NCBI GenBank assembly: GCA_963813815.1
Contig: CAWFAD010000009.1
Location: 6,851 to 70,850, forward strand
DNA from: an uncultured bacterium
GTDB lineage: Bacteria > Krumholzibacteriota > Krumholzibacteriia > Krumholzibacteriales > Krumholzibacteriaceae
Length of the DNA stretch: 64,000 nt
Direction: 5' to 3'
Position 1 is the first letter of the stretch. Every line of letters begins with the position of its first letter. The notes below the pieces were generated by a model. It was not told the DNA's origin. It did not search any database and saw only the letters and a list, made by a program, of their open reading frames with translations. Position numbers and translations under genes: made by a program. Below, piece by piece: positions 46,103 through 62,821 of the stretch.

Positions 46103-46507
46103 TCACCGTCGCTTCCACTGATATCGTTTCAAATCGATCCCGCCGTCGGCGTCGAACCTCACGCCTTCGATCTCGAGTCTCACGCGCTGCTCGTCCTCTC
46201 CGTCGGGATCAATCGAACCGAGGCTGATGCGCCCCCTCGCGTTTACGACGCGGTGCCACGGCACGTCCGATCCTGCCGGCAGGGCGTGCAGCGCATACCC
46301 CACGCGCCGGGCGTGCCCGGGGATGCCCGCGAGCTCGGCGATCTGCCCGTACGTCGCCACGCGCCCGCGCGGTATGCGGCGGACGAGCGAGTAAACGTCT
46401 TCATAGCTGCTGCTCATAATTTGTTCGCGCGCCTGGCGCCAGTATGGGGAAGCGGCGGCTCGGCCATCAAGGGCAATCTGGCATCCGTCGAAAGTCGGCT
46501 TGCGCAA
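46103..46507 (-). CDS. Alkyltransferase-like (ATL) protein: MGMT/Ogt DNA-binding domain with Trp replacing the active-site Cys (PWHRV)
   Basis: YGQIAELAG...PWHRVVNARG; the same PCHRV-to-PWHRV substitution as E. coli YbaZ / S. pombe Atl1. Confidence 0.7.
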   Translation of the reverse strand: MRKPTFDGCQIALDGRAAASPYWRQAREQIMSSSYEDVYSLVRRIPRGRVATYGQIAELAGIPGHARRVGYALHALPAGSDVPWHRVVNARGRISLGSIDPDGEDEQRVRLEIEGVRFDADGGIDLKRYQWKRR

Positions 46508-46614
46508 CCCGCCGCAACTTATTATTATTCGCCGAGTCTACGAGAACTCGGGCCGCGGGTTTCCGGGCCCGGTTCTGTTTTTTTATGGTCTTCCGAGCGG
46601 CGGTTCGTGCCAGT

Positions 46615-48528
46615 ATGACGTCGGTCAAACACATACGCAACCTCGCGATCATCGCGCATATCGATCACGGCAAGACGACGCTCATCGACTCCATCTTTCG
46701 CGCGACCCGCACGTTCCGCGACAACGAGCAGGTCGCCGAGCGCCTCATGGACAACAACGACCTCGAGCGCGAGCGCGGCATCACGATCCGGGCCAAGCAC
46801 TGCACGGTCAACTGGAACGGATACCTCATCAACATCATCGACACGCCGGGGCACGCCGATTTCTCGGGCGAGGTCGAGCGGGTGCTCTCGATGGTCGACG
46901 CGGTTCTCTTGCTCGTCGACGCCAACGAGGGGCCGATGCCGCAGACCCGGTACGTGCTCATGCGCTCGCTGCGGCTCGGACTCCGACCCATCGTCATCGT
47001 CAACAAGGTCGATCGCCCGCACGCGCGCCCCGATCACACGCTGAACAAAACGTTCGACCTCTTCCTCGACCTCGGCGCGAGCGACGAGCAGGCGCACTTC
47101 CCCGTTCTCTACGGCTCGGGGCTCGACGGCTGGCTCGTGCGGGACCTCGAGAAGGACGCGCACGAAGGCATGGACGCTCTCTTCGAAACGATCGTCGAGC
47201 ACGTGAAGCCCCCGAAGGTCGACCGGCATGGCCCCTTTCTCATGCAGGTGAGCACGCTCGCCTGGAGCGACTACATAGGCCAGATCGGCTGCGGCCGCGT
47301 GCTGCGCGGCACGCTCGCGAAGGGCGGCGAGTTCACGCGGTTCGTGACGCGTTGGAAGAACGCCGCCGATCAGGACGCCGGCTGGGACGTGACGGGCGCG
47401 GCCAAGGAAAAGAGCGTGCAGCTCTGGGTGACCCGCGGCCTGCAGCGCGTCGAAGTGGACTCCATCAGCGCGGGCGATATCGTCTGGCTCGCCGGGCCGC
47501 GCGAGATCGGCATCGGAGACACCTTCTCGACCATCGAAGACCCCGCGGCGGCTCTCAAGCCCCTCGAGATCGAGGAGCCGACGGTGTCGATGTTCTTTCT
47601 CGTCAACACGGGGCCCTTCTCGGGAAACGACGGCACGGCCATCACGCTGCGACAGCTCAAGGAGCGCCTCCAGCGGGAGCTGCGCACCAACGTGGCGCTC
47701 CGCATGGAGGATCTCGGACGATCCGACGGCGTAAAGGTGCTCGGCCGGGGCGAGCTGCACCTCGCCATTCTCATCGAGGAGATGCGGCGCGAGGGGCTCG
47801 AGATCTGCGTCTCCCGCCCCGAGGTCATCACGCACCGCGACGCGGACGGCAACCTTCTCGAGCCGATCGAGCAGCTCATCATCGACGTCCCCGGCGAGCA
47901 TCAGGGGATCATCATCGAGAAGCTCGCGCGCCGCAAGGCGGAGCTTCGAACCGTCGAGAACTCGGGCGCCGCGGTCGTGCGGATCGAGTTCGAGATACCG
48001 ACCCGCGGGCTCATCGGATACCGGTCCGAGTTTCTGACGGACACCCGCGGCCTCGGAATCATGTCCTCCCGCTTCCTCGCGTACGGGCCCTGGCGGGGCG
48101 AGATCGCCTCGCGCAACCGCGGCTCGCTCGTGAGCATCGCCACGGGATCGGCGACGGGGTACTCGATCGAAGCGCTCCAGGAGCGCTCGGTGATCTTCGT
48201 GCAGCCGGCCGAAAAGGTCTACACCGGGCAGGTCGTGGGCGAGAACTCGCGGGGCGACGATATGGAGTGCAATCCGACGAAGCAAAAGCACCTCACGAAC
48301 CACCGCTCCTCCACGAAGGACATCGCGGTCGCGATCAACGTGCCGCGCTCGATGTCGCTCGAGCAGGCGCTCGGTTGGATCGCCGCCGATGAGCTCGTGG
48401 AAGTCACGCCGAAGGCGATTCGGATGCGCAAGGCGATACTCGACGCCCTGCAGAGAAAACGCTCGCAGAAGACGCAGAACGCCTCCGCGAGGGAGATCGG
48501 CGCGCCGCCGGTTCAGCCGGCCGCCTGA
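46615..48528 (+). CDS. typA: Translational GTPase TypA/BipA
   Basis: G1 [10 protein letters not shown]3 DTPGHADF, G4 NKVD; EF-G-like domains; 637 aa. Confidence 0.9.
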
Positions 48529-48540
48529 TCCAACGACCCT

Positions 48541-50896
48541 CTACAGCCTGAAGAAATACTGCATTTTGAAAAACAGGTGCCACTCGGTCGGCTCGAAGCC
48601 TTGATGGGGATTCCCGGGTTCGGGGCCGAAGCGCGCGAAATCGAAATAGTTCGATCCGCCGCCGACGTAGAAAACGCTGAACGGGTTGATCTGGTACGTG
48701 AGCAGCGGCTCGACGTCGAGATCGCCCGTGAAATCGTCGTACTGAACGACGAACCGAAGAAACAGCTCGCGATTGAACTGATAGTTGATCCGCGTTCTCA
48801 GTATATAGCCGTCGAACACCTCTTCGCCCGTGTCCTTGCGGGAGAGCTCTGAATAGGTGAGGATCGGCTCTACCACGAGCCGCTGAGCGAGCTTGATCGT
48901 GGCCCAGGCATCGACGTGGGAGCCCTCTCCCAGCGCGGGAGGGCTTTCCGTGCGGGCTATCCTGTCTCCCAGGCCCAGCCAGAATCCGCACTGAAGATTG
49001 TCGCTGAAGGCGGTTCTCATCTCCGTGTAGAACAGCCGTATATCGTCGAAAAAGACTTCCCGGAAGCGCTCGGCGTAGAAATCGTACCCCACCATCACGC
49101 TGGTTTGCCGCTTGAACACCACCTCCACCCAGTTTTCCACCGACTGGGCCTTGTAGACGCTGAACGCGTTCCATCTCCGGCTGTACTCGTTCGTCGGGAT
49201 GATCTCGTCGAGCCACCGGTTGTCCAGGTAGAACACGTACGAGTTGCTCCATTCGACGCGGCGGTCGCTGTTGCGGAACACGAACCCGTTGTCCGCGCGA
49301 AAGGTCGGGCTCGAATCCCAGAAATCGAGGCTCGACCGCCAGCGCCGCGCGTCGCGTTCGAGGCCCACGTACGCTCCGTACCCCGTGTACGATTCGCCGT
49401 CGAGCGCGACGGTGTAATCCCCGCGGTCGAAGGTGGCGTCTCCGGCGTCCTCGACGAGCGCGGGATTGTCGGGCTCGCGCGTGATGCTCAGAAGCCCCTG
49501 TGTCTTCAGCGCGTAGTTCTGCTTGAAACGTACCAAGCCGTCGAGTCCCGCGACGGTTCCCGAGCCGCCGTCGTCGTACCCTCGGCTCGTCGCGACCGCG
49601 CCGAGATAGCTATCGTCCTTGAACGACCTGCGGAAACGCACGATGCCGCACGTGCTCTTGCCCGCGTCCGCCACGAGGCTGTATTCCTCAAAGGGGAGAA
49701 TGAGGGGCGTATGCTCGTCCCTCGCCGCCAGAGCGACGAATCCCGTCTTGCTCGTCCTTCCCGTGACCTTGGCCGCGAGCGACGGATCGTTGATGGTTCG
49801 CGTGTACACCGCGTTCCACCAGGTTCGGAAGAGATCGCTCCCCTCCTGAAAGAACGGCCTCCGCTCCGGAAAGAAAAGGGCGAAGGTCGTGTTCACGTCA
49901 ATCTGGGCGACGTCGGATTCGACCTGGCTGAAATCGGGATTGAGAGCGAGCTCGGCCCCGACGCTCGAGCTGATGCCGTAGCGGATGCCGAGAGACGGAT
50001 CGACGTCGAAATCGCGATTGTCGAATCCCGAGTCGGGATCCTCGCCGTCGCGAAGCGCTCCCGATTGCGAGCCGACGATCGTGGGAAGGAACTCGAACGA
50101 GCTTCCGGGCCGGACTCCGCTGATGCCGCTCAGCGTTCCCAGCTGGCAGAGAATGCAGGGGTTGTCGCGGAGCACCGCGGCCCACGAGTAGCTCCTCCTG
50201 CTGTCGCGCGGGTGATTGCGCCAGAAGGTGATGCGCCAGCTCTGATCTTCGCGGTCCGGGAATCTGAGGCTCTTGAACGGAATGGCGATCTCCACCTGAT
50301 AGCCGTCGGGCGTAATCCGCCCGGCGGAATCGAACACGACGTCGAATCCCAGGTCTTCATACCCCTTTCCTGATGGCCTGGCCGCCGGCTCCGTACTCGA
50401 CGTCCGAGCCCTCGTCCTCTTCCGAAAGCGTCCACCGCTTGTCCCCCTGGATGCCGAGCGGGTTGACGAACAGCTCGTACGCCCAGGCGGTGTTGTCGTA
50501 CGTGTCGAGGATGATGCCGACGTAGTCGTCGTTGAATATTTCGTCGCGGGCCCGCAACGTCGCCCGAATCGCCGAAGGATCGTCATGGGCGAAAAAGGCG
50601 ATATACAAGCGGCTCCGGTCGTAGGTCACGAGAACCTCGGTGTCGGCCTGGGGCCGCACCTGATCTCCGGGGGAGATTTCGGCGAAATTGCCCGCGCGGG
50701 CGGCGTTCTTCCATCCGTCGTCGTCGAGGAGCCCGTCGATGCGGATAGCGCCATCGATCGGCGCGACGCGAAGCGCCGGCCGCACGTTCGGGCTGAACGA
50801 AGCGGCCTCCTCGCCCGCGACCGCGACGGAGGATAAAACTCCAAGCGCCGCGCAAAACGCAAGAATACTTCTCAAAGGACAACGCCTCATCTGCAT
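48541..50896 (-). CDS. DUF5916 / CBM9-like-domain outer-membrane beta-barrel-type protein (C-terminal Phe); frameshift in a C4/G4 run at ~50362
   Basis: The 189-aa ORF (50357-50926: signal peptide + CBM9-like domain ...DDYVGIILDTYDNTAWAYELFVNPLG) and the 681-aa ORF (...SAGRITPDGYQVEIAIPFKSLRF...YFFRL*) are one gene; removing 1 nt rejoins them. Confidence 0.5.
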
Positions 50897-51089
50897 ATAA
50901 ATAGAAATGCGGATAGATCCTGGCACCGTCCCCAGTCTGGCCGATTCGCCGGAAGCGTGTCAATAGTTTTAGGAGCGCGGCTCGCGAAAGCGCATTTGAC
51001 ACATGTGTCAACATTTGTTAACGTAGTCGCCAGGCGATAGCTCCAACGCACAGCTTCTCCACTGCATCCGACCGGCAGAGGTCTCGCCC

Positions 51090-53697
51090 ATGGACTCTCT
51101 CGTCGGCAAAATCGTCTCGCACTACAGAATCATCGAGAGAATCGGCGCCGGCGGCATGGGCGTCGTGTACAAGGCCGAGGACACGAAGCTCGGCCGCACC
51201 GTCGCCCTCAAGTTTTTGCCCCCCGAGATGACCCGCGACCGCAAGGCCAAGGAGCGCTTCGTGGCCGAGGCGCGGGCGGCCTCCGCGATAGAGCATTCCA
51301 ACATCTGCACGATATTCGAGGTCGACGAGATCGAGGACGACCGGATATTCATCTCGATGGCCTATTACCAGGGCAAGACGCTGAGAGAGCGCATCGCCGA
51401 GGGGCCGCTCGGGCTCGCGGAAGCGCTCGACGTCGCCTCGCAGACCGCCCACGGGCTCGCCAAGGCCCACGCCCACGGGATCGTGCACAGGGACATCAAA
51501 CCGGGCAACATTTTCCTCACGGATGACGGCGCGGTGAAGATCGTCGACTTCGGGCTCGCCAAGCTCGCCGGGCAGGCGAGGCTCACGACCTCGGGGAAAA
51601 CGATGGGCACCGTCTCGTACATGTCCCCCGAGCAGGCGCGGGGCGAGGAGACGGGCCCCCGGACGGACGTCTGGGCCTTGGGAGTCGTGCTCTACGAAAT
51701 GGTGACGGGCGAGCTGCCGTTTCGGGGCGACTACGACGTCGCGGTCATCTACTCGATCTTGAACGAGACGCCCCCGGCGATGAGCGCCGTCCGCCCCGGC
51801 ATACCGGAGGAGCTCGAGAAGATCGTCGAGAAGGCGCTCGCGCGCGACGAGGCCGGGCGCTACGAGGACGCGGGCGCGCTCCATTCGGATCTCGCCGCGC
51901 TCAAACAGCAGCTCGATTTCAGCACGTTCACGGGCGCGCACGAGTGGAATTTCAAAGGCGGGAAAAGGAGGCGGATAATGGCTCTCGTGGGCGCGGCGGT
52001 CGCCGTCGCGGCCCTCGCCGTCGTCTGGCGGACCGCGGGCGAAAGGCGAGGCCCCGCGCCCGGGCTGCCCGGTCAGGCCCGCAAGGTCACGAGCGGCGAC
52101 GCATGGCAGGGCGATCCCGCCCTCTCGCCGGACGGAAGCAGAATCGCGTACTCCTCGGACGAATCAGGCAACAAAGACATCTACATCACGAACGCGAGCG
52201 GAGAGAGCAACCTGAGGCTCACGAACGACCCCGCTCCCGATTATTACCCGGCGTGGTTTCCCGACGGAGAGGCGATCGTCTTCGTCTCGGAGCGGAGCGG
52301 CATCCCCTCGATCTGGAAAATGAGCTCGCTCGGTGGCGGCGCCACCTTGCTCGTCGAGAACGCCATCGATCCCGCGATATCGCCCGATGGCGCGCGGATC
52401 GCGTTCACGACGCTCTTGCCGGGAGGGGATCAGTTCATCGCCGTCGCTTCGCTCGCCGATGCCGGAAAGGTGACGCTTCTCACGGGGCCGTCGGACGGGC
52501 TGTGGGACCACCGAAAGCCGGCGTGGTCTCCCGACGGAAGAACGATCTGCTACGCCAGCGCGGCAGGACCTCTGGACCGTATCCGCTTCGGGCGGTCCGG
52601 CCATGCGTCTGACGAGAGAGGGGGAGAACGACACGAGCCCCGCGTGGTCGAGCGACGGCAAGCGCGTGTACTTCTCCTCCGAGCGCGAAGGGACGCTCGC
52701 CCTTTGGCGCATCGACGTCAGGGGGGCCGCGCTCACGAGGCTCACGCAGGGACCGGGGTACGAGTACGACCCGAGCGTCAGCGGGGACGGCTCGCGAATC
52801 GCCTACGCGACGCGGAGAGAGCCGGGGGCGCTGTACCTCAGGGATATGAGGGCGAAGACGGACACGAAGCTCGCCGGGATACGGGGCGACTGTCTCGCCG
52901 CCATCGCGCCGGACGGGAGCAAAATCGTGTTCGCGTCGGATCGCGGAGGCGTGATGTTCGATCTCTGGATGCAGCCGCTCGAAGGCGGACTCCCCTCGGG
53001 GCAGCCGCAGCGCCTCACCGAGGACTCGGCGCACGCCTCGTGCCCGATGTTCTCGCCCGACGGCAAGTGGATCGCGTACTACCGGCTTCTCGGCGAGCAG
53101 CGCGACGTCTATACGATTTCGGCCTCGGGCGGCCAGCCGATCAGGTTCACCGACGATCCCGCGTCCGACGTCCAGCCGGCGTGGTCTCCGGACGGCTCCA
53201 AGATCGCTTTCGCCTCGGAGCGCGGCGGCCGCTTCGACATCTGGATCGCTCCGGTGGCCGAGGGACGACCCACCGGCCCGCCGCTGCGCCTCACGAGCGC
53301 TCCCGCGGACGCCATCGCTCCCGTCTGGTCGCCCGATGGAACGCGCATCGCGTACGTCGGCGACACCGAGAGCGGCCCCGACGTCTGGATCGTGCCGGCG
53401 GACGGCAAGGCGCCGGGGAAAAGAATCACATCGGGGGCGAACGTGGAGACGGTTCGGTGGGACCCCCTCGCCGGGGCGCTCCTCGCGAGCGGAAGATGGG
53501 GCGAGGACGAGCTGAGCATTCGCCGGGTCTCGCCCGAAGGAGGGGCGGTTTCGCCGATCGATCCGCCCATCGTTCTCGGCCCCGCGCCGACGACCGCGTT
53601 ATTCGACGTCACGCTCGACGGAGGTCTCGTGCTCTTTCCTCGCGAGAACAAGCGGGGAAACATTTGGGCGCACGAGGCGAAGAAGGGAACGTTCTGA
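51090..53697 (+). CDS. Ser/Thr protein kinase - TM - TolB-like (PD40/WD40 beta-propeller) fusion; frameshift at ~52563-52572
   Basis: Hanks kinase motifs GAGGMGVVYKA, HRDIKPGN, DFGLA, SPEQ; TM IMALVGAAVAVAALAVVW; 10+ PD40 repeats (SPDGSRIAY, WSPDGSKIAF...). Continues in ORF 52603-53697 after a 1-nt shift. Confidence 0.8.
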
Positions 53698-53720
53698 CTC
53701 TGACGAAAAGGAGGGACGAC

Positions 53721-54146
53721 ATGGTAGCGCGAAAACCGGCGCCCCGGGCTCTGGCCGCGAGGCGCGAGACGCGGAAGGCGCTCTTGGAGGCGCTCGCCTC
53801 CATCCGCGCGGCGAAGAGGGCCATCGTCAAGACGGGAGCGATGAGGACGACCGTCTACCCCGCGGTATTCCCGCCGCAGACGCCGACGAGCGTTTGCAAG
53901 ACGATCACCACGGATTCCATCGTCCTGAACCCGCCCTACGTGCCGTTCACCAAGTGCAGGGCCTTCTATCCTCCGAGGGTTCCGTTCAAAATATGCGGCA
54001 TTCCGCCGCGTGGGATCGATGTGACGAGGGAAGATTTCAGGAAGGGGCTCGAGGCGATCGAGCTGTGGATACGGTACGTGCAGAAGGTCTTCGACACGGC
54101 CGCTTCGAAGAGACCGGCGCTGCCCAAACCGAAAGCCCGGCGGTAA
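53721..54146 (+). CDS. Small (141 aa) Pro/Cys-repeat protein: candidate RiPP precursor or rSAM substrate (three PPxxPxxxC repeats)
   Basis: Strong GGAGGG RBS; helical N-terminal region; core PPQTPTSVC / PPYVPFTKC / PPRVPFKIC (53871-54020); 15 nt upstream of the rSAM/SPASM gene. Confidence 0.55.
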   Translation: MVARKPAPRALAARRETRKALLEALASIRAAKRAIVKTGAMRTTVYPAVFPPQTPTSVCKTITTDSIVLNPPYVPFTKCRAFYPPRVPFKICGIPPRGIDVTREDFRKGLEAIELWIRYVQKVFDTAASKRPALPKPKARR

Positions 54147-54161
54147 GGGCGGCGGAAGAGC

Positions 54162-55385
54162 ATGTCCCCCCTCGAGCGTATCGAGGCGCTCACCCTCATC
54201 CTCACGTCGCGCTGCAACATGCGCTGCGCCTACTGCTACCAGAGCGCGAAACGGCCGGCGAGCGCGTCGTGGAGGACGATCGGCGCCGCGATCGACCTCG
54301 CGATGGACGGCGGGCGCGGGGAGATCGACATCGGGTTCTGCGGGGGCGAGCCGCTTCTCGAGTTTCCCCTCATGCGACGCGCGGTCGCGCGCGCCGAGGG
54401 GAAGCGGCCGGGCGGACGGGGCGCGACGTACTACATCAGCACGAACGGCACGCTCCTCACTGAGGAGATCGCCGCCTTTCTCGAAGAGCATCGCTTCGAG
54501 ACGCAGATCAGCTTCGACGGCGTCGCGGCCGCTCAGGACCTTCGAGGACGCGGCACCTTCCGGACTCTCGACCGGCTGCTCGCGCGGTTGCGAATAAGGC
54601 ACGCCGGGTTCTACGAGAGCAACGTCTCGATCGCCCTCACCGTGACCCCGCGCAACCTCGCGCAGCTCGCCGAGTCGGTCTCCTACTTTCTCGACATGGG
54701 CGCGTCGAGAATCGTGATCGCGCCGGCCATCGCCTCGGACGCCGAGTGGAGCGACGATCTCATGGGCGGGCTCGACGCGCAGCTCGCCTCGGCGTTCGAG
54801 AGAAGCCTCGCGTACTACGAGGAAACGGGAGAGATACCGGTTCAAATGTTTCGCGGCGGGGACGCGCCCTCGAGCGCGCCGAGAGGGCGGCCACTCTGCG
54901 GCGCCGCTCGCGCGGCGGGCATCACGGTCGACGTCGACGGCGAGGTCTACGGATGCTCCATGTTCGCTCGCTCCTACCTCGACGTCGAATCGCCGCTCCT
55001 TCGCGCGTGCGTGGAGGCGATGCGCCTCGGGAGGATCGACGATCCCGGTCTCTCCCGCCGCCTCGCCTCCCACCCCGCGGCGGTGCGGCGGGCGGGGATA
55101 TTCCACCGCAAGGACCGAAAGCGCTCGGCGCACGCGAGGTGCGCCGAGTGCCGCTATCTCGATCGCTGCTTCGTCTGCCCCGCGTGCATCGCCTTCGCGC
55201 CCGGGAACGGCGACCCCGACAGGATCTCGGACTTCTGCTGCGCCTTTAATCAAGCGGCGCTGAAATATCAGGACCGCTTCCCGCGCGAGGCGGCGGCCGG
55301 CGACGCGCTCCTCGCGCCCCCCGGCGCCGCGGCCGAGATGGAGCGCTGGAGGATTCTCGCCGGCGGAGCGCCGCGCCCCGCATAG
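54162..55385 (+). CDS. Radical SAM enzyme with C-terminal SPASM domain (anSME / peptide-maturase-like)
   Basis: CNMRCAYC (CxxxCxxC) cluster; GGEPLL SAM-binding motif; C-terminal Cys cluster CAECRYLDRCFVCPAC. Confidence 0.85.
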   Translation: MSPLERIEALTLILTSRCNMRCAYCYQSAKRPASASWRTIGAAIDLAMDGGRGEIDIGFCGGEPLLEFPLMRRAVARAEGKRPGGRGATYYISTNGTLLTEEIAAFLEEHRFETQISFDGVAAAQDLRGRGTFRTLDRLLARLRIRHAGFYESNVSIALTVTPRNLAQLAESVSYFLDMGASRIVIAPAIASDAEWSDDLMGGLDAQLASAFERSLAYYEETGEIPVQMFRGGDAPSSAPRGRPLCGAARAAGITVDVDGEVYGCSMFARSYLDVESPLLRACVEAMRLGRIDDPGLSRRLASHPAAVRRAGIFHRKDRKRSAHARCAECRYLDRCFVCPACIAFAPGNGDPDRISDFCCAFNQAALKYQDRFPREAAAGDALLAPPGAAAEMERWRILAGGAPRPA

Positions 55386-55495
55386 CCCGCATCCTCGTAG
55401 CCCGCATCCACTTCAAAGCCCGCTCATTCGACGATATTTGGCGGATGCGACATATGGTATCCTGCATCCGCACGATGCGAGAAAGGAGCGCCGCT

Positions 55496-57794
55496 TTGAA
55501 ACGACATGGTCCTCACGGCTCAATCGTCGCGGCCGCCGCGGCCGCGTTGCTGCTCGTCTCGTTCGCCTCGGCGCCGGGACGCGCGGGCGAGGTCTCCTCG
55601 CTCGCCATCGAGAACGGCGTCATCCGCTGCTCGATCGAGCTCGAGCGAGGCGCGCTTCGATCCGAGCGCATCGAGCTTCTGCCGGGAGAGTCTCGGGGGC
55701 GAGGCGCGGGCGCGCTTCCCGCGATCGAGCTCGACGCGGATTTCGCGATCGACGTCATGTACACGGACTGGTCGGCGCCGGGCAAGATCGACAACGCCGA
55801 CAACCCCGTCCTCCTCTCGAAATCGAGCTTCACGGTCCTCTCGAGCGAGACGCGCGAAGAGGGGGGCGCCAAGGAGCTCACGCTCCTCTGCCGCGGAGCG
55901 GATCATCCGATCGAGCTTCGTATCACTTACCGCCTCGAGCCCGAGGCCTTCTACGTAAAGCGCTGCATCGCCGTGCGCGACACGACGTCCGGCCGCCATT
56001 TCTTGAGGCGGCTCTGGCCGAGGAGCGGCGAGGTCCGCGGAATCGCCTCGATCGTGAAGCCGGGCGGCTTCGGCCAGCCCGTCGCGGCGCTTCATTCCAA
56101 GGGGCGGGGCCTTCTTCGGCGTCGAGTACCCGGCCGCCGAGAACCATATCGAAGCCGCGGCAGGCGGGAGATACACCCTCCGCTGCGGGCAGGAGCACGG
56201 CGCGATCATCGGCCGGGACTGGCTCGCGAGCGACTGGGTCGTCGCGGGCCTCTCGCCCGACGGGCACGTGAAGCGATGGTTCTTCGAGTACCTCGACCGC
56301 GTGCGCGTCGCGCCGCTTCGCCCCTACGCCCTCTACAACACGTGGTACGACCTCCGCTCCCCCGAGTACCCGAAATGGTCCGCCGATCGCGTCATGAGCG
56401 AGGCGACGTGCCTCGCGATGGCCCGCGTTCTCCGCGAGCAGATGGAGCGGCACGGCATCCGTCTCGACGCCTTCGTGCTCGACGACGGCTGGGACGTCTA
56501 CGAGAGCGATTGGGTCATTCGAAAGAAGCAGTGGCCGGCGGGCTTCAAGCCGCTCTCCGACGAGCTCGCGAAGTCAGGCACGAGCCTCGGCGTCTGGTTC
56601 GGGCCGACGGGAGGCTACTGTTCCACGAGAGCGCCTCTCGTGGATGAAAGCGCACGGCTACGAGACCGTGGGGGATATGCTCTGCGTCGCGGGCGGGAAA
56701 TACGGCGGCGCTCCTTCGCCGCCGCGTCGAGCGATCTCGTCGAGCGCGACGGCGTCGGATATTTCAAATGGGATGGAATTCAGTTCTCGTGCAGCGAGCC
56801 GGGCCACGGACATCCGACGGACGTCTACTCCCGCAGGGCCGTCATGGAGTCCGTGGCCGCCATGTGCCGCGCCGTGCGCGAGAGGCGGCCGGACATTTTT
56901 CTCAATATCTCGTCGGGCACGTGGCTCAGCCCGTGGTGGGTGCGCTACGCGAACACGATCTGGATGCAGGGGATGGACTACGGCTTCGCCGACGTGCCGT
57001 CCATGAGCCGGCGCGACGGCTCCATCACGTACCGCGACTTCGTGCTCTACGACGACTTCCGCGTGCAGGACCGGTGGTTTCCCATCGCGAACCTCATGAC
57101 CCACGGCATCATCAAGGGAAAGGATTTCTCGGTCGGCGTCGAGAGCGAGCCGCTCGACAAGTTCACCGACGACGTGCTCCTCTACTTCGCGCGAGGCGTC
57201 GCCGATGTACGAGCTCTACATCTCCCCCGACATCCTGAGCGAGGGAGAATGGGCCTCGATCTCGAGGTCGATGGCGTGGGCGCGCGACCGTTTCCCGATC
57301 CTCATGAGCACGAGATGGTGGGCGGGAATCCCATGAAGGGGGAGCCGTACGCGTACGTCCACTTCAAGGGCTCGCGAGGAATCGTCGCCGCGCGAAACCC
57401 CGTCATGCGGCCCGCGGCCATCGAGGTCGGGCTCGAGACCGCGCACGGCCTCGACGCCGGGGCCTCCTCCCTCGTGCTCGAGCGCGTCTATCCGACGCGC
57501 TGGATCTCGCCGAGGCTCCACCGGGCGGGAGAGCGGATCGACATCGCGCTCGACGGATTCGAAACGGCCGTCTACGAAATCTATCCGCTGGGCGAGGCGA
57601 CGGAGCCGCTCGTCGCGGGGGTCGTCTTCGACGTCGTCTCGGAAACTGAAACGCGGCGCGTCATACGCTATCGCGACGCCTCGGCCAAGGCCACCGTGCT
57701 CAATCCGGCGTCCGTCGTCTCGGCGACCCACGAGGAAAGCCCGCGGCGGTCAAGCGAATCCCCTTCGCCCGCGACAGGGCGATCGATCTCGTGA
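55496..57794 (+). CDS. Secreted GH-D-clan alpha-galactosidase-like glycoside hydrolase (GH27/GH36-like), disrupted by at least 4 frameshifts (possible pseudogene or error-dense region)
   Basis: TTG start with AAGGAG RBS and signal peptide; motifs AFVLDDGWD, GVWFGP, YFKWDG, NISSGTWLSPWW. Reading frame switches at ~56105 (GGGGCGGGG), ~56600-56650, ~56770 and ~57790; a C-terminal extension is possibly present to ~58250. Confidence 0.45.
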
Positions 57795-58257
57795 GCGGCG
57801 TCTCTCTCGCGCCCGATAAGGCGGACGGATCGAAGGCGGCGGTGCGCTGCGAGGTATCGCCGGATGCGGCGGGCGCGACGCTCGCGATCCTCCTCTCCCC
57901 CGCCGAGAGCTGCACGGCGAAGGAGAAGCCCGCGCTCGCGGTCGAGCTCGACGGCGCCGCGATCGAGGCCGGCACCGAGCCGCAGGAGAGGGGCTCGCAG
58001 TGGTGGACGCTCCCGATACCGACCGGACGCCACGAGGCGCTCCTGCGCGTGAAGCCCGGAGCGGGGGACGGCGAATGGAGAGGCTCGATGCAGGTCTGGC
58101 TCGTCGCGATGGAGAAGCGCGCGGGGCGCGAGATCGTCCTCGAGCTCGCGAATCCGCCGCGGGCGAGACCGCTCCCGCCCCGGCCGTGGGAGCCCGGAGA
58201 AACGCGCCGGAATATTCCGCTCGGAGAGGCGCGAACTTCCGGCAAAGGAGAGCCCGC

Positions 58258-59000
58258 GTGGATATTCGCGGACGAGATCGTAGTCGCGTCAAGGGCCGCG
58301 TCATCGTCGAGGTTTGCCTCGACTCGGTCGAGTCGGCCGTCGCGGCCCGCGACGGAGGAGCCGACCGCATCGAGCTCTGCTCCGACCTCGCGAGCGGGGG
58401 ACGACGCCGAGCGCCGGATTGATCGAGGAGGTGCGCGCCGCCTGCGGCATCCTCCTTCACGTGCTCATCCGCCCGAGACTCGGGGACTTCCTCTACTCCC
58501 GCGAGGAGCTTCGCGTCATGGAGCGCGACATCGAGAGCGCGAAGCGGGCCGGCGCGGACGCGGTCGTTCTCGGCGTGCTCGACCGCGACCGATCGGTCGA
58601 TAGCTCCCGCGCTCGCGCCCTCATCGAGCTCGCCCGCCCCATGCGAGCGACGTTCCACCGGGCGTTCGACGCCGCGCGCGATCCGCTCGCCGCGCTCGAA
58701 GACGTGATCGAGGCGGGCGCCGAGACGCTCCTCACGTCCGGACAACGCCCCACGGCCCAAGAGGGCGCCGGAGCTCATCGCCGGATCTCGTCCGGCGCTC
58801 GGCCGGCCGCCTCGAGATCATGGCCGGCGCCGGGCTCACGGCGGCGAACGCCGCGCGCGTGCTCGGAAGCCACGGGGGTTCGGGCAATTGCACGTGGGAG
58901 GAGGCGTGAGCCGGGTGGAAACGAGCGACGCGCCCGCTCTTCTCGTCGACGCGGCGCATCGTGACGACCGAGGCGGTGCGATCCTTCCGCGCCGCTCTGC
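58258..59000 (+). CDS. cutC: Copper homeostasis protein CutC, with about 3 frameshifts (~58420, ~58760, ~58885)
   Basis: GTG start with AAAGGAG RBS; [28 protein letters not shown], ...[14 protein letters not shown]..., [25 protein letters not shown] spread over three frames. Confidence 0.6.
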
Positions 59001-59227
59001 GAGCGTAGCTTCGAGCGCCGGGCGCGCTCGGGATCGCGCCCGAGCGGTCTCAGGCCCCTTTCTCCCGCTCCTTGAGCCGCCGGAACATCTCTCTTATGTC
59101 GAGCTGAGCCGCGGATCGCCACGTAGACGGTGACGGTCGAGTACCACACGAGAACGGCGATCGTGAGGAGCCCCCAGAAGGGATGGTCTTTCAGCATTTC
59201 AACGAGCATCATGAGCGCTTCCCCCGC

Positions 59228-60803
59228 TCAGGCCCGCTTCGCCGCGGGCTTCAGGAGCGATCCGACGACCATCGCCACGGCGACCGCGGCGTAGGTCCCG
59301 ATGTTGACGAAATTGTCGCCGATATGGTATCTCGCCCAGCCCATCGTCTGCGTCAAGGACCCGGCCGTCCTCGCATGACCTCGCCGCCCGGCCTCGTCGA
59401 GAAGCGGCACCGTCGACCTGCACGAAGATATTCAAGCGCAGCGACAGCACCGGCAGCGCCGCGCCGATGACGATCGCCGCGATCGCGCCCCAGCTGTTCG
59501 CCCGCTTCCAGTAGCAGCAGGTGATGAGCAGCACCGACATGCTCGCGAGATAGATCGTGCCCGTCGTCTGGCAGTACTCCCAGAGGTTTCCCTCGAGCTT
59601 GTACCAGAGCCCCCAGAAGAGGAGAAAGACGCCGATTATGGCGATGATGCACCGGTTCCAGAGGATGCCCTTCTTCTCCGACCAGGGTTTCCTCCTGCGG
59701 AGCGGCGCGAGGATATCGTTGTAGATGACGCTCCCCCACGTGAGCATGTAGGAGGAGTCGGTGCTCATGTCGGCCGCGAGCATCGCCGCGACGAGGAGCC
59801 CCATCATGCCGGCGGGAAGAATCTGGCTCAGAAGATACGGCATGGCGAAAAGAGAGCCGTCCCTCTCGCCGAACTGGAGGCCGATGCGCGCGAGCACGTC
59901 GGGAGCGACCATGGCGAGAGCGGCGATGCCCCAGATCGCCGGGATCACCCAGCGCGCCACGAAGAAGAAGGCCGTTCCCGTGTAGACCCGCCGGCCCGTC
60001 GCGCTGTCCTTCGCCGCGAGGAGCCGCGCGATGATCGTCTGCCACGTGAGGACGGCCGCCGTGTTCGTGAGAATGTTCGAGAGGACAAACGGCCACCCGA
60101 GCCCCGGAGCCACGAACGGGTTGAAGCCCCCCGCGCCGTAGCTCGCGCCGACGGTGGCCGTGAGCCTGCTCCACCCCACGGCGCCGAGAATGAGGAACGT
60201 CACGACGAGGAGCCCCGCGCTCATCACGACGAACTGGAGAAAGTCCGTCACGAGCACGGAGAGCATGCCGCCGAGAATCGTGTACACCATGACGGCGAGA
60301 AGGAGGACGGTCATGGCGAGCTCGAGATACTCGAGGTTCATGCCGGTCGCGACCACGAGAAACTGCCCGCCGACCCGGAGAAAGACCCCCATGTTGAGAA
60401 GCCCGCCGAGAACGATCACGACGCCCGCGAGCCAGCGGACGAAGGGGCCGAACCGCTGCTCGAAGAGCTCCGGGATCGTCATGACGTTCGAGTCGCGGAG
60501 CGGCTTCACGCAGAATCCCGTGTATCCCACGAGGAACATTGCCGCGCACTGGCAGAGCCCCGGGATCGTCCCGGCGAAGCCGCGGGTGTATCCGGCCTGC
60601 GCCGTGTACATGCAGGTCACGATGCCGAACTCGGTCGCGGCCAGGGAGGCGATGCCGAGGTAGACGTTCATCTCGCGGCCGGCCACGATGAAGTGCTCCA
60701 CCTTGACCACGTACTTGCGGACCATGACGCCCGCGACCATCGTGGCGAGGAGGTAGAGCCCGACGATGCCGCCGTCGATGAGCATGTTGAAGTCGCTGTT
60801 CAT
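59228..60803 (-). CDS. Sodium:solute symporter family (SSF) transporter; frameshift near 59410-59420
   Basis: 13-TM SSF-like sequence MNSDFNMLIDGGIVGLYLLATMVAG...; the C-terminal TM is encoded in ORF 59228-59410 in another frame. Confidence 0.7.
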
Positions 60804-60835
60804 GGAACCCGCCGCGGCGCAGGAGCGGCCCGAAT

Positions 60836-61688
60836 CACCCGTTCTTGCGCTCCGGATAAAACTCGACCTTCTCGTCGAGCATGCGTAGGTGCACCGTATC
60901 GCGTCCGCGGTCCCGACGAGCTTGAGCTCGCCCCTCCCGATCCGCGTTCTCTTGAGAAGGCCCTCTCTCAGCAGCCTTTCCTGCAGCAGCGTCGTCCTTC
61001 TCGTGGAGTAGATCCTCTCGGGATACACGTATGAGCTCACGACGATGGTCTCCCCTTGGTAGCTCACGACCTTCGCCGGAAGGGGCTTCTCGGTGTAGAG
61101 CGGCACGGACAGCCTATCCCTGATGAGGTGCTCGATATGGTGGAAGAAGGTGAAGGGAAAGGCCACGTCGTAGAACAGGACCTTCCCGTTGAGCGTTTTG
61201 AGCTTGTCGAAGGGGCTTCCTTCGCCGCATGGATAGACGCACCTCTCGTGCCCTTCGACGATCCAGGCGCTCTTCTCTCCGAAGGCGAGAATGGGATGGA
61301 CCGGGTTCAGACTTCTCATCACGCCGTTTCTTCTTCTAAAGAGCTCCGATATGAGACCCATCATCGACGGCGTCTTCCTCACGTCGAACGTCGGTTGCGT
61401 CATCAGATACTCCAAGGAGGAGGAGCCGTAGGGCAAGGAGACCATGAGAAGGTTGCCGCTCGGCCCGACCGCCTCGAGCAGGCACTCGATAATGTCCTGC
61501 GCGGCGCCCTTGAAGCCGTTGTTGCTCTTGAACGAGCTGTGCACCATCACCGTATCCCCGGGAGCCACTCCGACCTTTCGAAGCGCCGCCATGAACGCGC
61601 CTTTGTCGTAGCCGAAGAAGCGATCGGCGATCATTTTGTCCAGCTTGTTATAGCGCCTCTTTATCGCGAGCTTCCTCTTGACGCTCAT
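60836..61688 (-). CDS. AAC(3)-family aminoglycoside N3-acetyltransferase-like protein; frameshift at ~60890 so the ORF reads through into the SSF gene
   Basis: GDTVMVHSSFKS...LLEAVGPSGNLLMV...; natural C-terminus ...DTVHLRMLDEKVEFYPERKNG* found in the -1 frame; lower GC than the bulk of the window. Confidence 0.55.
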
Positions 61689-61806
61689 GTTGCGCCATAT
61701 CCAGCTCTGGGCGATGACTTTCTTCAGCAACTCGCACCCCTTTGGCTCTAGCTCGAAACCGCTTTCCTCGAATCTTCTCTGAATATCGTTCTCGCCGCGT
61801 TCTCGC

Positions 61807-62821
61807 TCAGTATCCGTATGCAAGCGCATCGTCGGATTTCACGCCCGCTCGCTCGAGGGCGTACAGCAACCGCATGCCCATCGCGATCTCGCTCGCGTAG
61901 AGCGCGTCGGACCCGAAGAGCACCCTCTCAGGCTCCACATTGGTCAGAAGCGCCACAATGGCGCTCTCTTGAAGCCCCGATATGTCGATGTGCACGTTCC
62001 CATAGGCGCGGAGCAGCTTCTTCAAAGCGGGGACGACCGCGTCGTCGATTTCCGATGGAGTCATTCCATAGGCGCCTCCATGGGCGATTATCACCGGCGA
62101 GGACGACTGGAAATCGATGTCCGCGAGATTCGACATTTCCGCGAAATGCGCGTTCGCGTCGCCGAGGATCTCGCTTCTGCCGCCATGAATGACGACGGGA
62201 AGGCCGAGGCCGCCGCTCGCCGCGACGATGCATTCGACCCGTTCCTTCCCCTCGGGAGCGGCCAGATCGATTCTCGGTGACGTTCGGATGGATCTTGACC
62301 GCGACGATGCCGTAGTCCTCGACCTGGCCCTTTAAATACGAGGCGACATCTTCGTTTCTCACCGTGTTGGGAACGGCGCCGGCGAGCCGAAAGCGATCGT
62401 CGCCCTTGAACATCCGGAACGACGCGTCCATCTGCTCATCCATCGTTCCCGTCGCCGGGGCCACCGGCAGGAGCAGCGCCTTGTCTATGCCCAGAATATC
62501 GAAATAGTCCCCGAACACCTTGGGGCCCGTGTGGGAGTAGATCCGGCGAAGCATCATCGGCAGTATCCGCCGGTACTCCTTCGCCGCGTAGTTCGCGTCC
62601 TTCTCCTCATGCCCCTGCTTGAAATCGGCCAAGGAAGGGCTTCGATACGCCGCCGTGCCGAGCCCGAACAACCCCTTGGCCTCCGGGCGCTCCTCGTAGC
62701 TATGCACCCCGAAGATGACTTCCGTCGGATGCACGTGCGCATCGTACGTCTTGAAGGCCTTGTGGACCTCCTTGAGCTTCCCGATGTACCTGTCGATGTC
62801 TTTGTTCCAGGGAGGAGTCAT
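61807..62821 (-). CDS. Amidohydrolase-2-family TIM-barrel metal-dependent hydrolase; frameshift between ~62140 and 62280
   Basis: YDAHVHP at the N-terminus (ORF 61928-62821) and LFGSDALY at the C-terminus (ORF 61807-62136) in different frames. Confidence 0.55.

What the first reader, a model, noticed from the sequence alone, without database searches (positions are those of the whole stretch)
51090..55385. Candidate undescribed RiPP-like / protein-maturation locus: Ser/Thr kinase-TolB fusion, PPxxPxxxC-repeat protein, radical-SAM/SPASM enzyme
Three genes are tightly linked, with 23-nt and 15-nt intergenic gaps and strong RBSs. The first is a transmembrane Hanks kinase with a periplasmic TolB-like beta-propeller. 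The second is a 141-aa protein whose centre carries three evenly spaced Pro-rich, Cys-containing repeats. The third is an anSME-like rSAM with a full SPASM cluster. Enzymes with a SPASM domain typically install crosslinks or modify Cys/Ser in short repeated motifs of a co-encoded substrate. I do not recognise this repeat (PPxxPxxxC) or the kinase-TolB pairing from any characterised RiPP class (sactipeptides, ranthipeptides/SCIFF, streptide, PQQ, mycofactocin, anSME-type).
Basis: partly seen in the sequence, partly recalled or inferred. Interest (0 to 1): 0.85.

Follow-up and report, generated by a model that had tools for sequence, protein, structure and literature searches.

The report
Kinase-linked radical-SAM small-protein maturation cassette
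A receptor protein kinase, a small cysteine/proline-rich protein and a radical-SAM enzyme form a three-gene unit that recurs in many uncultured soil and sediment bacteria and matches no described family, so it is probably an unstudied protein-modification system tied to signalling.

Summary
The three genes are real and tightly packed. Two corrections apply. The kinase–propeller gene is broken in this sequence by one extra base near 52557, probably an assembly error. The three PPxxPxxxC units are not evenly spaced.

The radical-SAM enzyme belongs to a large family (652 homologs). In 51 of 52 related loci with enough upstream DNA it follows a transmembrane Ser/Thr kinase with PD40 propellers. 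A small Cys-containing gene almost always lies between them, and no other neighbour is conserved.

The small proteins are hypervariable. They share a ~35-residue helix and a Pro-flanked or C-terminal Cys core that is often repeated, and the core type tracks the enzyme's phylogeny. PPxxPxxxC is the local version of this core.

No Pfam, NCBIfam, PADLOC or literature match exists for the small protein or the cassette. The enzyme fails the anSME, PapB and SCIFF-maturase thresholds. It has a SPASM fold with seven conserved Cys in the 3+4 scheme of the thioether synthases CteB and PapB, and no RRE domain.

Best reading: the enzyme modifies the partner's Cys, most likely as a thioether, and the product works with the kinase. 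The chemistry and the kinase's role are inferred, not shown. I rate it a new variant of a known kind, interest about 0.7.

The parts
51090..52556 (+). First part (frame 0) of the receptor Ser/Thr kinase gene. It holds the Hanks kinase domain (about 51123-51866), a TM-like segment (about 51975-52028) and the first PD40 repeats.
   Evidence: Pfam Pkinase 171 bits and PD40 105 bits. Catalytic motifs and the hydrophobic segment were found. It is 78% identical to the intact L001 ortholog over residues 1-490.
52557..52557 (+). Single extra base ('a') that shifts the kinase-propeller gene from frame 0 to frame +1. It is probably an assembly indel.
   Evidence: tblastn of the intact 864-aa L001 ortholog switches frame here; CYA|ARQDLW is continuous in the ortholog. 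Other genes in the window, such as CutC, are also split between frames.
52558..53697 (+). Second part (frame +1) of the same gene: extracytoplasmic PD40 (TolB-like) beta-propeller repeats, ending at the stop codon 53695-53697.
   Evidence: Pfam PD40 191 bits in 6 stretches. The TolB equivalog scores 173.8 bits, below its 343 cut-off. It is 64% identical to L001 residues 470-864.
53706..53715 (+). Shine-Dalgarno region (aaaaGGAGGg) of the small-protein gene.
   Evidence: Read directly from the sequence; the GGAGG ends 6 nt before the ATG at 53721.
53721..54146 (+). Gene for the 141-aa small Cys/Pro-rich protein, the putative substrate of the rSAM. It has three Cys, at positions 59, 79 and 92.
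   Evidence: The ORF is listed. Sixteen family members align along the full length, and an identical copy exists in an independent assembly. No Pfam or NCBIfam hit. The AF2 model shows two confident helices flanking a low-confidence loop.
53742..53831 (+). N-terminal basic helix of the small protein (aa 8-37).
   Evidence: AF2 pLDDT 87-94. The conserved consensus is TRKALMEALRAIREARKS.
53871..53897 (+). Core unit 1, PPQTPTSVC (aa 51-59).
   Evidence: Regex match; P51, P52 and C59 are nearly invariant in the clade alignment.
53931..53957 (+). Core unit 2, PPYVPFTKC (aa 71-79).
   Evidence: Regex match; it aligns with the PPxxPxFIC units of the relatives.
53970..53996 (+). Core unit 3, PPRVPFKIC (aa 84-92), followed by GIPP. 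This is the best-conserved unit.
   Evidence: One search gives the match. P85, P88 and C92 are invariant or nearly invariant. This unit is the only one kept in the shorter paralogs.
54015..54122 (+). Family-defining amphipathic helix (aa 99-134: VTREDFRKGLEAIELWIRYVQKVFD...), the proposed recognition element.
   Evidence: hhalign gives 92% probability (E 5.9e-7) against the N-terminal helix of the divergent CPPP-type partners. AF2 pLDDT 88-92.
54162..55385 (+). Gene for the radical-SAM/SPASM enzyme (407 aa). The CxxxCxxC motif is at 54213-54236. The SPASM Cys (C246, C265, C327, C330, C336, C339, C360) lie within 54897-55241.
   Evidence: Pfam Radical_SAM 50 bits. The best NCBIfam hit is PapB at 135.6 bits, below the 340 cut-off. 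652 homologs. Invariant Cys are listed. The AF2 model has pLDDT 83. The nearest folds are CteB, anSME, ChlB and TigE at about 18% identity.

Best explanation
This is a conserved three-gene operon. It encodes (1) a single-pass receptor Ser/Thr kinase with extracytoplasmic PD40 beta-propellers, (2) one or two small cytoplasmic proteins and (3) an RRE-less radical-SAM/SPASM enzyme.

The small protein has a conserved amphipathic helix of about 35 residues and a hypervariable, Pro-flanked Cys core. In this window the core is three PPxxPxxxC units in a flexible loop between two helices.

Proposed mechanism:
- The rSAM enzyme docks on the conserved helix.
- It presents the core Cys thiolate to the open coordination site of auxiliary cluster 1.
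- It abstracts a hydrogen atom with the 5'-deoxyadenosyl radical.
- It forms a Cys-S-to-carbon (thioether) crosslink at each core unit, as CteB, Tte1186 and PapB do.
- Because no acceptor side chain is conserved, the acceptor is most likely a backbone C-alpha or a neighbouring Pro or aliphatic carbon.
- The modified protein then acts together with the co-transcribed kinase. With no signal peptide, exporter or protease in the cassette, it is more likely the kinase's cytoplasmic partner or substrate than a secreted ligand.

Shown by the data: the conserved cassette, the partner family, the Cys/Pro core with co-evolution, and the enzyme's fold and cluster scheme.

Inferred only: that the small protein is the substrate, that the reaction is a thioether, and what the kinase does.
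For: Cassette:
- The same kinase-PD40, small ORF, rSAM order is found at 35-72% rSAM identity in Acidobacteriota (including Vicinamibacteria), Ca. Eiseniibacteriota and Fibrobacteraceae MAGs and in about 80 metagenome contigs.
- PD40 ends 190-830 nt upstream of the rSAM, on the same strand, in 51 of 52 loci.
- No other flanking gene family is found in more than 6 of 42 loci.
- No + strand terminator-like site falls inside or between the three genes.

Partner protein:
- Among 62 non-redundant partners, Cys followed by a Pro-rich stretch or by the C-terminus occurs in 33 of 62, against 9.2±2.7 in shuffles.
- 29 of 62 have a single Cys.
- Tandem core repeats occur in several lineages.
- The shared helix is supported by hhalign at 92% probability.
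- Core type follows the rSAM clades.

Enzyme:
- CxxxCxxC plus seven invariant SPASM Cys.
- The profile alignment shows two Cys in the AC1 segment, as in CteB. anSMEcpe's extra Cys and its Asp277 are absent.
- PMC10177961 states that CteB, PapB and Tte1186 have a three-Cys AC1 with an open site that contacts the substrate Cys.
- Most of the top NCBIfam similarities are Cys-directed or thioether-forming maturases: PapB, CcpM, QhpD and the SCIFF maturase.
- The closest solved fold is CteB.

Kinase:
- All 28 cassette kinases examined keep the catalytic Asp, the Asn and DFG, and all have a TM-like segment.
Against: - There is no experimental evidence of any modification.
- The nearest solved relatives are only about 18% identical. 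They carry out four different chemistries: thioether (CteB), formylglycine (anSME), cyclophane (ChlB) and TigE's reaction. Homology therefore cannot fix the reaction.
- No acceptor residue is conserved.
- The Pfam SPASM model scores below threshold.
- One locus (L108) has the rSAM after a GGDEF-EAL protein with no small ORF.
- The link to the kinase is purely genomic.
- The kinase gene is frameshifted in this window.
Confidence: 0.55

Rival explanations
1. The chemistry is anSME-like rather than thioether. The enzyme oxidises the single conserved Cys of the small protein to C-alpha-formylglycine, or another Cys-only product, and creates a reactive aldehyde on a small scaffold protein.
For: - Nearly half of the partners have only one Cys, and no acceptor residue is conserved.
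- Pro is frequent at +2 and +3 after the Cys, which resembles the sulfatase C-x-P-x-R motif.
- The enzyme has no N-terminal RRE and has anSME-like overall architecture, with TM-score 0.74-0.76 normalised to anSMEcpe.
- anSME acts on proteins rather than on leader-bearing peptides (PMC10114670).
Against: - The anSME equivalog scores 56.4 bits against a cut-off of 349.
- The family lacks the extra AC1 Cys of anSMEcpe and the Asp that follows the YPC Cys.
- No Arg is conserved at +4.
- The higher-scoring HMM similarities are to thioether-type maturases.
Confidence: 0.2
2. This is a secreted RiPP pheromone system. The small protein is a precursor whose modified core is cleaved, exported by unlinked machinery and sensed outside the cell by the PD40 propellers of the co-encoded kinase, forming an autocrine or quorum-sensing loop.
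For: - The kinase's sensor domain is extracytoplasmic, and beta-propellers of this type bind peptides (established knowledge of TolB and the prolyl-oligopeptidase family).
- The cores are hypervariable, repeated and sometimes duplicated, attached to a conserved recognition helix. This is typical of RiPP precursors.
- Core type diversifies clade by clade.
- NCBIfam already holds a kinase family named for its association with a RiPP system (TOMM system kinase/cyclase, listed).
Against: - The partners read have no signal peptide or hydrophobic N-terminus.
- No transporter or protease is conserved in 42 flanks.
- The window clade's protein is predicted to be a two-helix hairpin with the core in an internal loop and the conserved helix after the core.
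- Many partners carry polybasic tails.
Confidence: 0.2
3. The small protein is not the rSAM's substrate. It is a kinase adaptor or regulator, and the rSAM modifies something else, such as the kinase or a metabolite, or is merely co-regulated.
For: - The association is only genomic.
- One locus has the rSAM without a small ORF.
- The enzyme lacks a recognisable RRE.
Against: - A Cys in a biased Pro/Gly context is the one universal feature of otherwise hypervariable partners.
- Core type co-varies with the rSAM clade.
- The small gene sits immediately upstream of the rSAM with a 15-nt gap.
- The open AC1 site is the feature that binds substrate Cys in the thioether-forming homologs.
Confidence: 0.1
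4. The enzyme is an ordinary anaerobic sulfatase-maturating enzyme serving a sulfatase encoded elsewhere, as the automatic JGI name 'AslB' suggests.
For: - JGI auto-annotation names many homologs 'sulfatase maturation enzyme AslB'.
- The fold resembles anSMEcpe.
Against: - The enzyme scores 56 bits against a cut-off of 349 for TIGR03942.
- None of 52 contexts has a sulfatase beside the rSAM. Instead there is an obligate kinase and small-protein context.
- A genuine anSME-sulfatase pair was seen only in a 27%-identical outgroup, L018.
- The Cys and Asp signature differs from anSME.
Confidence: 0.03
5. The cassette is an anti-phage defence system built from a kinase and a radical-SAM enzyme.
For: PADLOC kinase models (PD-T4-6, mad6) and viperin models give hits.
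Against: - The hits cover only the generic kinase domain and the generic rSAM core.
- The small protein has no hit.
- The kinase is a membrane receptor with a large periplasmic sensor.
- The flanks are housekeeping or variable genes, not defence islands.
Confidence: 0.03

Closest known systems
Thioether-forming rSAM/SPASM maturases CteB and Tte1186 (SCIFF) and PapB (ranthipeptide, freyrasin)
   Same: - They share the rSAM core plus a SPASM domain.
- They share the seven-Cys scheme: AC1 with three Cys and an open site, AC2 with four.
- Their substrates contain Cys, often as repeated core motifs.
- PapB is the best HMM hit and CteB is the best solved-structure hit.
   Different: - Identity is only about 18%, and the enzyme scores far below every equivalog cut-off.
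- There is no N-terminal RRE-type extension. The CxxxCxxC motif starts at residue 18, against C104 in CteB and C119 in PapB.
- The SPASM motif is Cx2Cx5Cx2C, with about 62 residues between C265 and C327.
- The substrates are 35-184-aa proteins with a Pro-flanked single Cys and no CX3D/E or SCIFF pattern.
- The family is obligately linked to a receptor kinase.
Anaerobic sulfatase-maturating enzyme (anSMEcpe, AtsB/AslB type)
   Same: - Both have an RRE-less rSAM/SPASM architecture of similar length.
- Both act on a Cys in a protein.
- Pro often follows the target Cys.
   Different: - It fails the TIGR03942 cut-off (56 vs 349 bits).
- It lacks the eighth Cys and the Asp277 equivalent.
- It has no sulfatase partner and no CxPxR motif.
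QhpD/QhpC (thioether crosslinks in a small protein subunit of quinohemoprotein amine dehydrogenase)
   Same: An rSAM/SPASM enzyme modifies Cys residues of a small co-encoded protein that stays a functional protein rather than becoming a released peptide. QhpD is among the top HMM similarities at 86.5 bits (PMC10114670).
   Different: - It scores far below the cut-off of 453 bits.
- No dehydrogenase subunits are present.
- The partner family is different, and the cassette has a kinase context.
RiPP systems with dedicated signalling partners (for example the NCBIfam 'TOMM system kinase/cyclase fusion protein', or streptococcal RaS-RiPPs under Rgg/SHP control)
   Same: A peptide-modification cassette is genomically coupled to a signalling protein (family name listed; PMC13361665 title).
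   Different: - The kinase here is a transmembrane Hanks kinase with PD40 propellers.
- It is the first gene of the same operon in essentially every member of the family.
- The modifying enzyme is an rSAM, not a cyclodehydratase.
- This comparison rests on family names and titles only. It was not tested here.

Membership tests
Radical SAM superfamily (PF04055) | CxxxCxxC motif and a Pfam score above the gathering threshold | tested here: met
   Scores 50.0 bits against GA 29.5. C18, C22 and C25 are at least 90% conserved in 30 homologs.
SPASM domain (PF13186) | Pfam score above the gathering threshold | tested here: not met
   Scores 16.9 bits against GA 21.5. The likely cause is a family-specific insertion of about 62 residues between C265 and C327.
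SPASM domain (structural definition) | Seven or eight conserved C-terminal Cys able to bind two auxiliary clusters, plus the SPASM fold | tested here: met
   C246, C265, C327, C330, C336, C339 and C360 are invariant. The AF2 model (pLDDT 83) matches CteB and anSMEcpe over about 385 columns with TM 0.65-0.75.
Anaerobic sulfatase maturase (TIGR03942) | Equivalog score of at least 349 bits | tested here: not met
   Scores 56.4 bits.
Anaerobic sulfatase maturase (TIGR03942) | Cognate sulfatase with a C/S-x-P-x-R motif; fully Cys-ligated AC1 and the catalytic Asp after the third AC1 Cys | tested here: not met
   No sulfatase lies beside the rSAM in any of 52 contexts. L018 serves as a positive control with CTPTR. 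Only two Cys occur in the AC1 segment and no Asp follows C265.
PapB-type ranthipeptide maturase (NF047865) | Equivalog score of at least 340 bits | tested here: not met
   Scores 135.6 bits, the best of all NCBIfam hits.
PapB-type ranthipeptide maturase (NF047865) | Precursor with CX3D/E motifs | tested here: not met
   The window protein's Cys contexts are CKTIT, CRAFY and CGIPP. The family-wide context is Pro-rich or C-terminal.
PapB/CteB/Tte1186 thioether synthases | AC1 bound by three Cys (open site for the substrate Cys) and AC2 bound by four | tested here: met
   Seven invariant Cys align to the CteB pattern. The reference scheme comes from PMC10177961. Cluster occupancy itself cannot be tested here.
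SCIFF maturase (TIGR03974) | Equivalog score of at least 425 bits and a SCIFF precursor | tested here: not met
   Scores 54.4 bits. The partners have one to a few Cys and no SCIFF pattern.
RRE-dependent RiPP rSAM enzymes | N-terminal PqqD-like RiPP recognition element before the rSAM core | tested here: not met
   CxxxCxxC starts at residue 18, and the model begins directly with the barrel strand. The CteB alignment starts at CteB residue 90.
RiPP (general definition) | Gene-encoded precursor with a conserved recognition region and a variable core next to the modifying enzyme | tested here: met
   A shared helix accompanies hypervariable, repeated Cys cores that co-vary with the enzyme.
RiPP (general definition) | Leader removal and export (dedicated protease or transporter) and an actual post-translational modification | tested here: inconclusive
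   No protease or transporter is conserved in 42 flanks. The modification cannot be tested with these tools.
Hanks-type Ser/Thr protein kinase (PF00069) | Pkinase domain with the catalytic motifs | tested here: met
   Scores 171 bits. GAGGMGVV, VALK, HRDIKPGN, DFG and SPE are present. The gene is interrupted by a 1-nt frameshift further downstream.
TolB (TIGR02800) | Equivalog score of at least 343 bits | tested here: not met
   The two halves score 122.9 and 173.8 bits. The domain is a PD40-repeat propeller (PF07676, 191 bits), not TolB itself.

The most novel reading that the evidence does not exclude
A previously unrecognised signalling device. A radical-SAM enzyme installs a new type of crosslink at Cys-Pro cores, for example a Cys thioether to a proline or backbone carbon, in a dedicated small protein. 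That protein is the cognate partner (ligand, substrate or regulator) of a bacterial receptor Ser/Thr kinase. The enzyme, the core and the kinase diversify together across Acidobacteriota, Eiseniibacteriota and related uncultured phyla.
Probability: 0.3. Interest if true: 0.85.

Novelty: new variant of a known kind. Interest (0 to 1): 0.7.

Why it matters
Radical-SAM/SPASM enzymes paired with small Cys-containing partners are a known source of new peptide chemistry. This family adds several things.

- It is large: 652 homologs were scored in one search.
- It is absent from Pfam, NCBIfam, PADLOC and the searchable literature.
- It lacks the usual RRE domain.
- Its substrate family has a recognition helix that can sit before or after the core.
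- It is almost obligately co-encoded with a receptor Ser/Thr kinase.

If the small protein is indeed modified, the cassette offers two leads. One is a tractable route to a possibly new Cys/Pro crosslink. The other is a rare clue to the function of one of the many orphan PD40-type Hanks kinases of soil bacteria such as Acidobacteriota, whose ligands and substrates are largely unknown. The two-gene pair at 53721-55385 is small enough for direct heterologous testing.

Tried and rejected
- The word-index search with the 141-aa protein found only itself. The exhaustive HMMER search and a profile search were needed to find relatives.
- The genome-contig scan with the full-length rSAM alignment chose generic CxxxCxxC and GGEPLL patterns. 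It returned mostly unrelated rSAM enzymes, and only L007 and L008 were family members. For the metagenome scan this was fixed by submitting only the family-specific C-terminal region.
- The window's own rSAM is not on record in the gene-position index, so the source organism could not be named.
- A GC3 frame-plot meant to count frameshifts across the window was not decisive. Family hits on split ORFs were used instead.
- Promoter, terminator and Rfam scans gave nothing informative.
- PADLOC gave only generic kinase and viperin-core hits.
- Seven literature searches and four in-paper term searches found no description of the cassette.
- The idea that the chemistry links two Cys was rejected because 29 of 62 partners have a single Cys.
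- A triceptide-type aromatic crosslink was considered because ChlB is a structural neighbour and [FY]PP occurs in the window's clade. It was set aside as the general reaction because aromatic residues are not conserved in the CPPP-type and C-terminal-Cys partners.
- A conserved Thr at the start of the shared helix was considered as a phospho-acceptor. It is present in only about 60% of the divergent partners and may simply cap the helix, so no claim is made.

Full report
**1. Observation**

The ORF table and the raw sequence confirm two of the three genes as described. The 141-aa ORF lies at 53721-54146. It has GGAGG 6 nt before its ATG and starts 23 nt after the upstream stop. The 407-aa ORF lies at 54162-55385, 15 nt further on.

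The first gene is not intact in this sequence. The kinase part reads in frame 0 and the PD40 part in frame +1. Aligning the intact 864-aa ortholog of locus L001 to the window shows the frame switch at CYA|ARQDLW, which corresponds to one extra 'a' at about 52557. Frame 0 stays open by chance in this 66-68% GC DNA as far as 54146. This creates a spurious 1018-aa ORF that runs into the small gene.

Several neighbouring genes are also split between frames. CutC profile positions 31-156 lie in one ORF and its N-terminus lies in another. The DUF5916-like and melibiase-like genes also appear as overlapping ORF pairs. The window is therefore indel-prone, and the kinase frameshift is most likely an assembly artefact, although a real pseudogene cannot be excluded.

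The kinase domain has all catalytic motifs and is followed by a hydrophobic segment at about residues 296-313 and then by PD40 repeats.

The small protein contains exactly three PPxxPxxxC matches, at aa 51-59, 71-79 and 84-92. None of 200,000 shuffles gave even two matches. The offsets are 20 and 13 residues, so the units are not evenly spaced.

**2. Is the arrangement conserved?**

The rSAM has 652 homologs with E <= 1e-10 among the candidates scored, and the top 120 are 42-68% identical.

Contexts of four homologs on long contigs (68%, 63%, 48% and 44% identity) all show kinase-PD40, then one or two small ORFs, then the rSAM. These include a Vicinamibacteria MAG and a complete Ca. Eiseniibacteriota genome. 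Two more genomes, an Acidobacteriota MAG and a Fibrobacteraceae MAG, show the same layout.

A metagenome scan seeded with only the family-specific C-terminal region returned 80 further loci. tblastn analysis of all 88 loci gave these results:
- Of 52 loci with more than 900 nt upstream of the rSAM, 51 have a PD40 propeller ending 190-830 nt upstream on the same strand.
- The kinase domain is found wherever about 3 kb of upstream sequence is available.
- The one exception, L108, has a GAF-GGDEF-EAL signalling protein in that position and no small ORF.

A census of all ORFs within 4 kb on either side found no other family in more than 6 of 42 loci. The conserved unit is therefore exactly three genes, with no dedicated protease or transporter. 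No + strand terminator-like site falls inside or between the three genes, and no Rfam family is present.

**3. The small protein**

The window's protein has no Pfam or NCBIfam match. An exhaustive HMMER search of 1.84 billion cluster representatives found six relatives, and a profile search found 16. All are unnamed or 'hypothetical'. An independent assembly holds a 100% identical copy.

The clade alignment shows these elements in order:
- a basic N-terminal helix;
- one to three [FY]PPxxPxxxC units, of which the last, FPPRVPxxIC, is the best conserved;
- a PPxP stretch;
- a conserved helix (VT+xDFxxGLxxIExWxRYLxKVxD);
- a basic tail.

AlphaFold2 predicts two confident helices (aa 8-37 and 103-128, pLDDT 87-94) joined by a low-confidence loop that carries the repeats.

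In the wider family the partner is hypervariable, ranging from 35 to 184 aa. Typical cores are GGNCPPP, DGCPPP, four tandem GCPPP units (L105), two FGRAC units (L097), three LPPC units (L091), LPGxLCQP, or a C-terminal Cys such as GSNC, GKGC or RSC.

Tested against shuffles, a Cys followed by at least two Pro within four residues, or lying at the C-terminus, occurs in 33 of 62 partners. Shuffles give 9.2±2.7, with a maximum of 21 in 500. The pattern PP-x(2-8)-C occurs in 24 of 62 against 7.2±2.4. Twenty-nine of 62 partners have a single Cys.

A profile-profile comparison aligns the window clade's C-terminal helix (aa 99-134) with the N-terminal helix of the CPPP-type partners at 92% probability, E 5.9e-7. 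This is therefore one family defined by that helix. The core lies before the helix in the window's clade and after it elsewhere.

None of ten divergent partners matches a curated family. Core type follows the rSAM phylogeny, which is the pattern expected of an enzyme and its substrate.

**4. The enzyme**

Pfam recognises the radical-SAM core. The SPASM model is sub-threshold at 16.9 against 21.5 bits. Thirty homologs share an invariant set of seven C-terminal Cys: C246, C265, C327, C330, C336, C339 and C360.

The best NCBIfam hit is the PapB ranthipeptide maturase at 135.6 bits against a cut-off of 340. It is followed by the nif11-type maturase, CcpM, QhpD, HxsB and others. anSME scores 56.4 against 349 and the SCIFF maturase 54.4 against 425. 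The enzyme is thus a member of none of them.

The AF2 model is confident (pLDDT 83, pTM 0.83). Its nearest solved folds are all at about 18% identity:
- CteB, TM 0.65-0.69;
- anSMEcpe, TM 0.66-0.76;
- ChlB, a triceptide cyclophane synthase;
- TigE.

The CxxxCxxC motif starts at residue 18, so there is no N-terminal RRE domain, as in anSME.

The profile alignment shows two Cys in the AC1 segment (MCG...DVDGxVYGC), like CteB (GCGSGH...GDIYPC). anSMEcpe has an extra Cys there (SCGMNGTCTC) and an Asp after the YPC Cys, and this family has neither. PMC10177961 states that CteB binds AC1 with three Cys and AC2 with four. It also states that PapB and Tte1186 share this scheme, and that the open AC1 site contacts the substrate Cys. 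The family here has exactly that 3+4 arrangement.

**5. Most likely mechanism**

What is shown is a co-inherited operon of a receptor kinase, a partner protein and an rSAM/SPASM enzyme. The partner's only universal features are the helix and a Pro-flanked or C-terminal Cys.

What is inferred is as follows:
- The enzyme binds the helix.
- The core Cys ligates the open AC1 site.
- A thioether is formed to a nearby carbon.

Because no acceptor side chain is conserved, the acceptor would be a backbone C-alpha (sactionine-like) or an adjacent Pro or aliphatic carbon.

Cys-only oxidation to formylglycine is the main chemical rival. It fits the single Cys, the Pro at +2/+3 and the RRE-less architecture. 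The cluster and Asp signature and the HMM scores count against it.

The role of the kinase is unknown. The partners lack a signal peptide, no exporter or protease is conserved, the window's partner is predicted to be a helical hairpin, and many partners have polybasic tails. These points favour a cytoplasmic partner or substrate over a secreted ligand, but the latter is not excluded.

All 28 cassette kinases examined keep the catalytic Asp, the Asn and DFG, and all have a TM-like segment. Nine of them replace the catalytic-loop Lys (HRDxK) with Thr, Ser or Asn.

**6. Comparison with what is known, and novelty**

The system works like the Cys-directed rSAM/SPASM maturases: CteB and Tte1186, PapB, and QhpD acting on the small protein QhpC. 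It fails every membership threshold tested. It differs from them in several ways:
- it has no RRE;
- its SPASM spacing is modified;
- it has a new partner family whose helix can lie on either side of the core;
- it is almost obligately coupled to a PD40-type Hanks kinase.

It is not a sulfatase maturase. The JGI label 'AslB' is a generic automatic name, and a genuine anSME-sulfatase pair was seen only in a 27%-identical outgroup. PADLOC gives only generic domain hits.

Seven full-text searches and term searches inside four relevant papers found no description of the cassette or of its motifs. The papers searched in this way included the 15,000-enzyme RiPP-rSAM compendium PMC10288494. The library does not hold all subscription-journal papers, so a prior description cannot be fully excluded.

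**7. Verdict**

The finding is real, conserved and not explained by any known family. I classify it as a new variant of a known kind: rSAM/SPASM maturation of a small Cys-bearing partner, here wired to a receptor kinase. The chemistry and the biology remain to be shown. Interest is 0.7.

Noticed in passing
window 58000-58964 (+); 48541-50926 (-); 55445-57794 (+); 59199-61829 (-): Several genes next to the locus are split between overlapping ORFs in different frames. CutC has its N-terminus in one frame and profile positions 31-156 in another. The DUF5916-like and melibiase-like genes are split as well. One ORF reads as an aminoglycoside N-acetyltransferase fused to a sodium:solute symporter. 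This suggests an indel-prone assembly, possibly from long reads.
   Followed up: partly
window 51090-54146 (+): Frame 0 has no stop codon for 1018 codons. It fuses the kinase N-terminus, out-of-frame propeller sequence and the 141-aa gene into one spurious ORF, a high-GC artefact that automatic gene callers could mis-annotate.
   Followed up: yes
L108 22-3020: The one exception to the kinase rule. Here a family rSAM starts directly after a GAF-GGDEF-EAL (cyclic-di-GMP) signalling protein with no small ORF, and it is followed by an unrelated gene. The rSAM is thus paired with a different kind of signalling protein.
   Followed up: partly
L001 5202-5504 and 5554-5985; L089; L160 1573-1818 and 1832-1990: Some loci carry two paralogous small partner genes in tandem. 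In L001 these are a 100-aa single-unit form and a 143-aa three-unit form. This resembles RiPP clusters that have multiple precursors.
   Followed up: partly
L004, L101, L105, L121, L125, L134, L138, L147, L151 (kinase catalytic loop): Nine of 28 cassette kinases have HRDx[T/S/N]PxN instead of the canonical HRDxKxxN. They lose the catalytic-loop Lys but keep the Asp, the Asn and DFG. They lie outside the window's clade, and most have partners with the helix placed before the core.
   Followed up: partly
L018 6004-7134 and downstream: A 27%-identical rSAM relative sits next to a sulfatase carrying the CTPTR motif. It is a genuine anSME-sulfatase pair and served as a positive control.
   Followed up: partly
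window 54957-55142 (rSAM residues 266-326): The family has about 62 residues between SPASM Cys265 and Cys327. CteB has about 38 between the equivalent Cys (C362 and C400). The segment holds conserved motifs (MRxGxxxDP...AGIFHxKxxKYSSYGRC). It may replace the missing RRE as a docking surface, and it probably explains the sub-threshold Pfam SPASM score.
   Followed up: no
window 46444-48528 (+) and L001 535-2448: A BipA/TypA GTPase gene lies upstream of the kinase gene both in the window and in the close relative L001. In the window a DUF5916-like gene on the opposite strand sits between them. This local synteny is limited to close relatives.
   Followed up: no
L120, L137, L138, L131, L105 (C-termini of the small partners): Many partners end in polybasic tails, such as KKKKKKKGK or KTKKKKK, right after the CPPP core. 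The tails are unexplained; they could bind membrane or nucleic acid.
   Followed up: no
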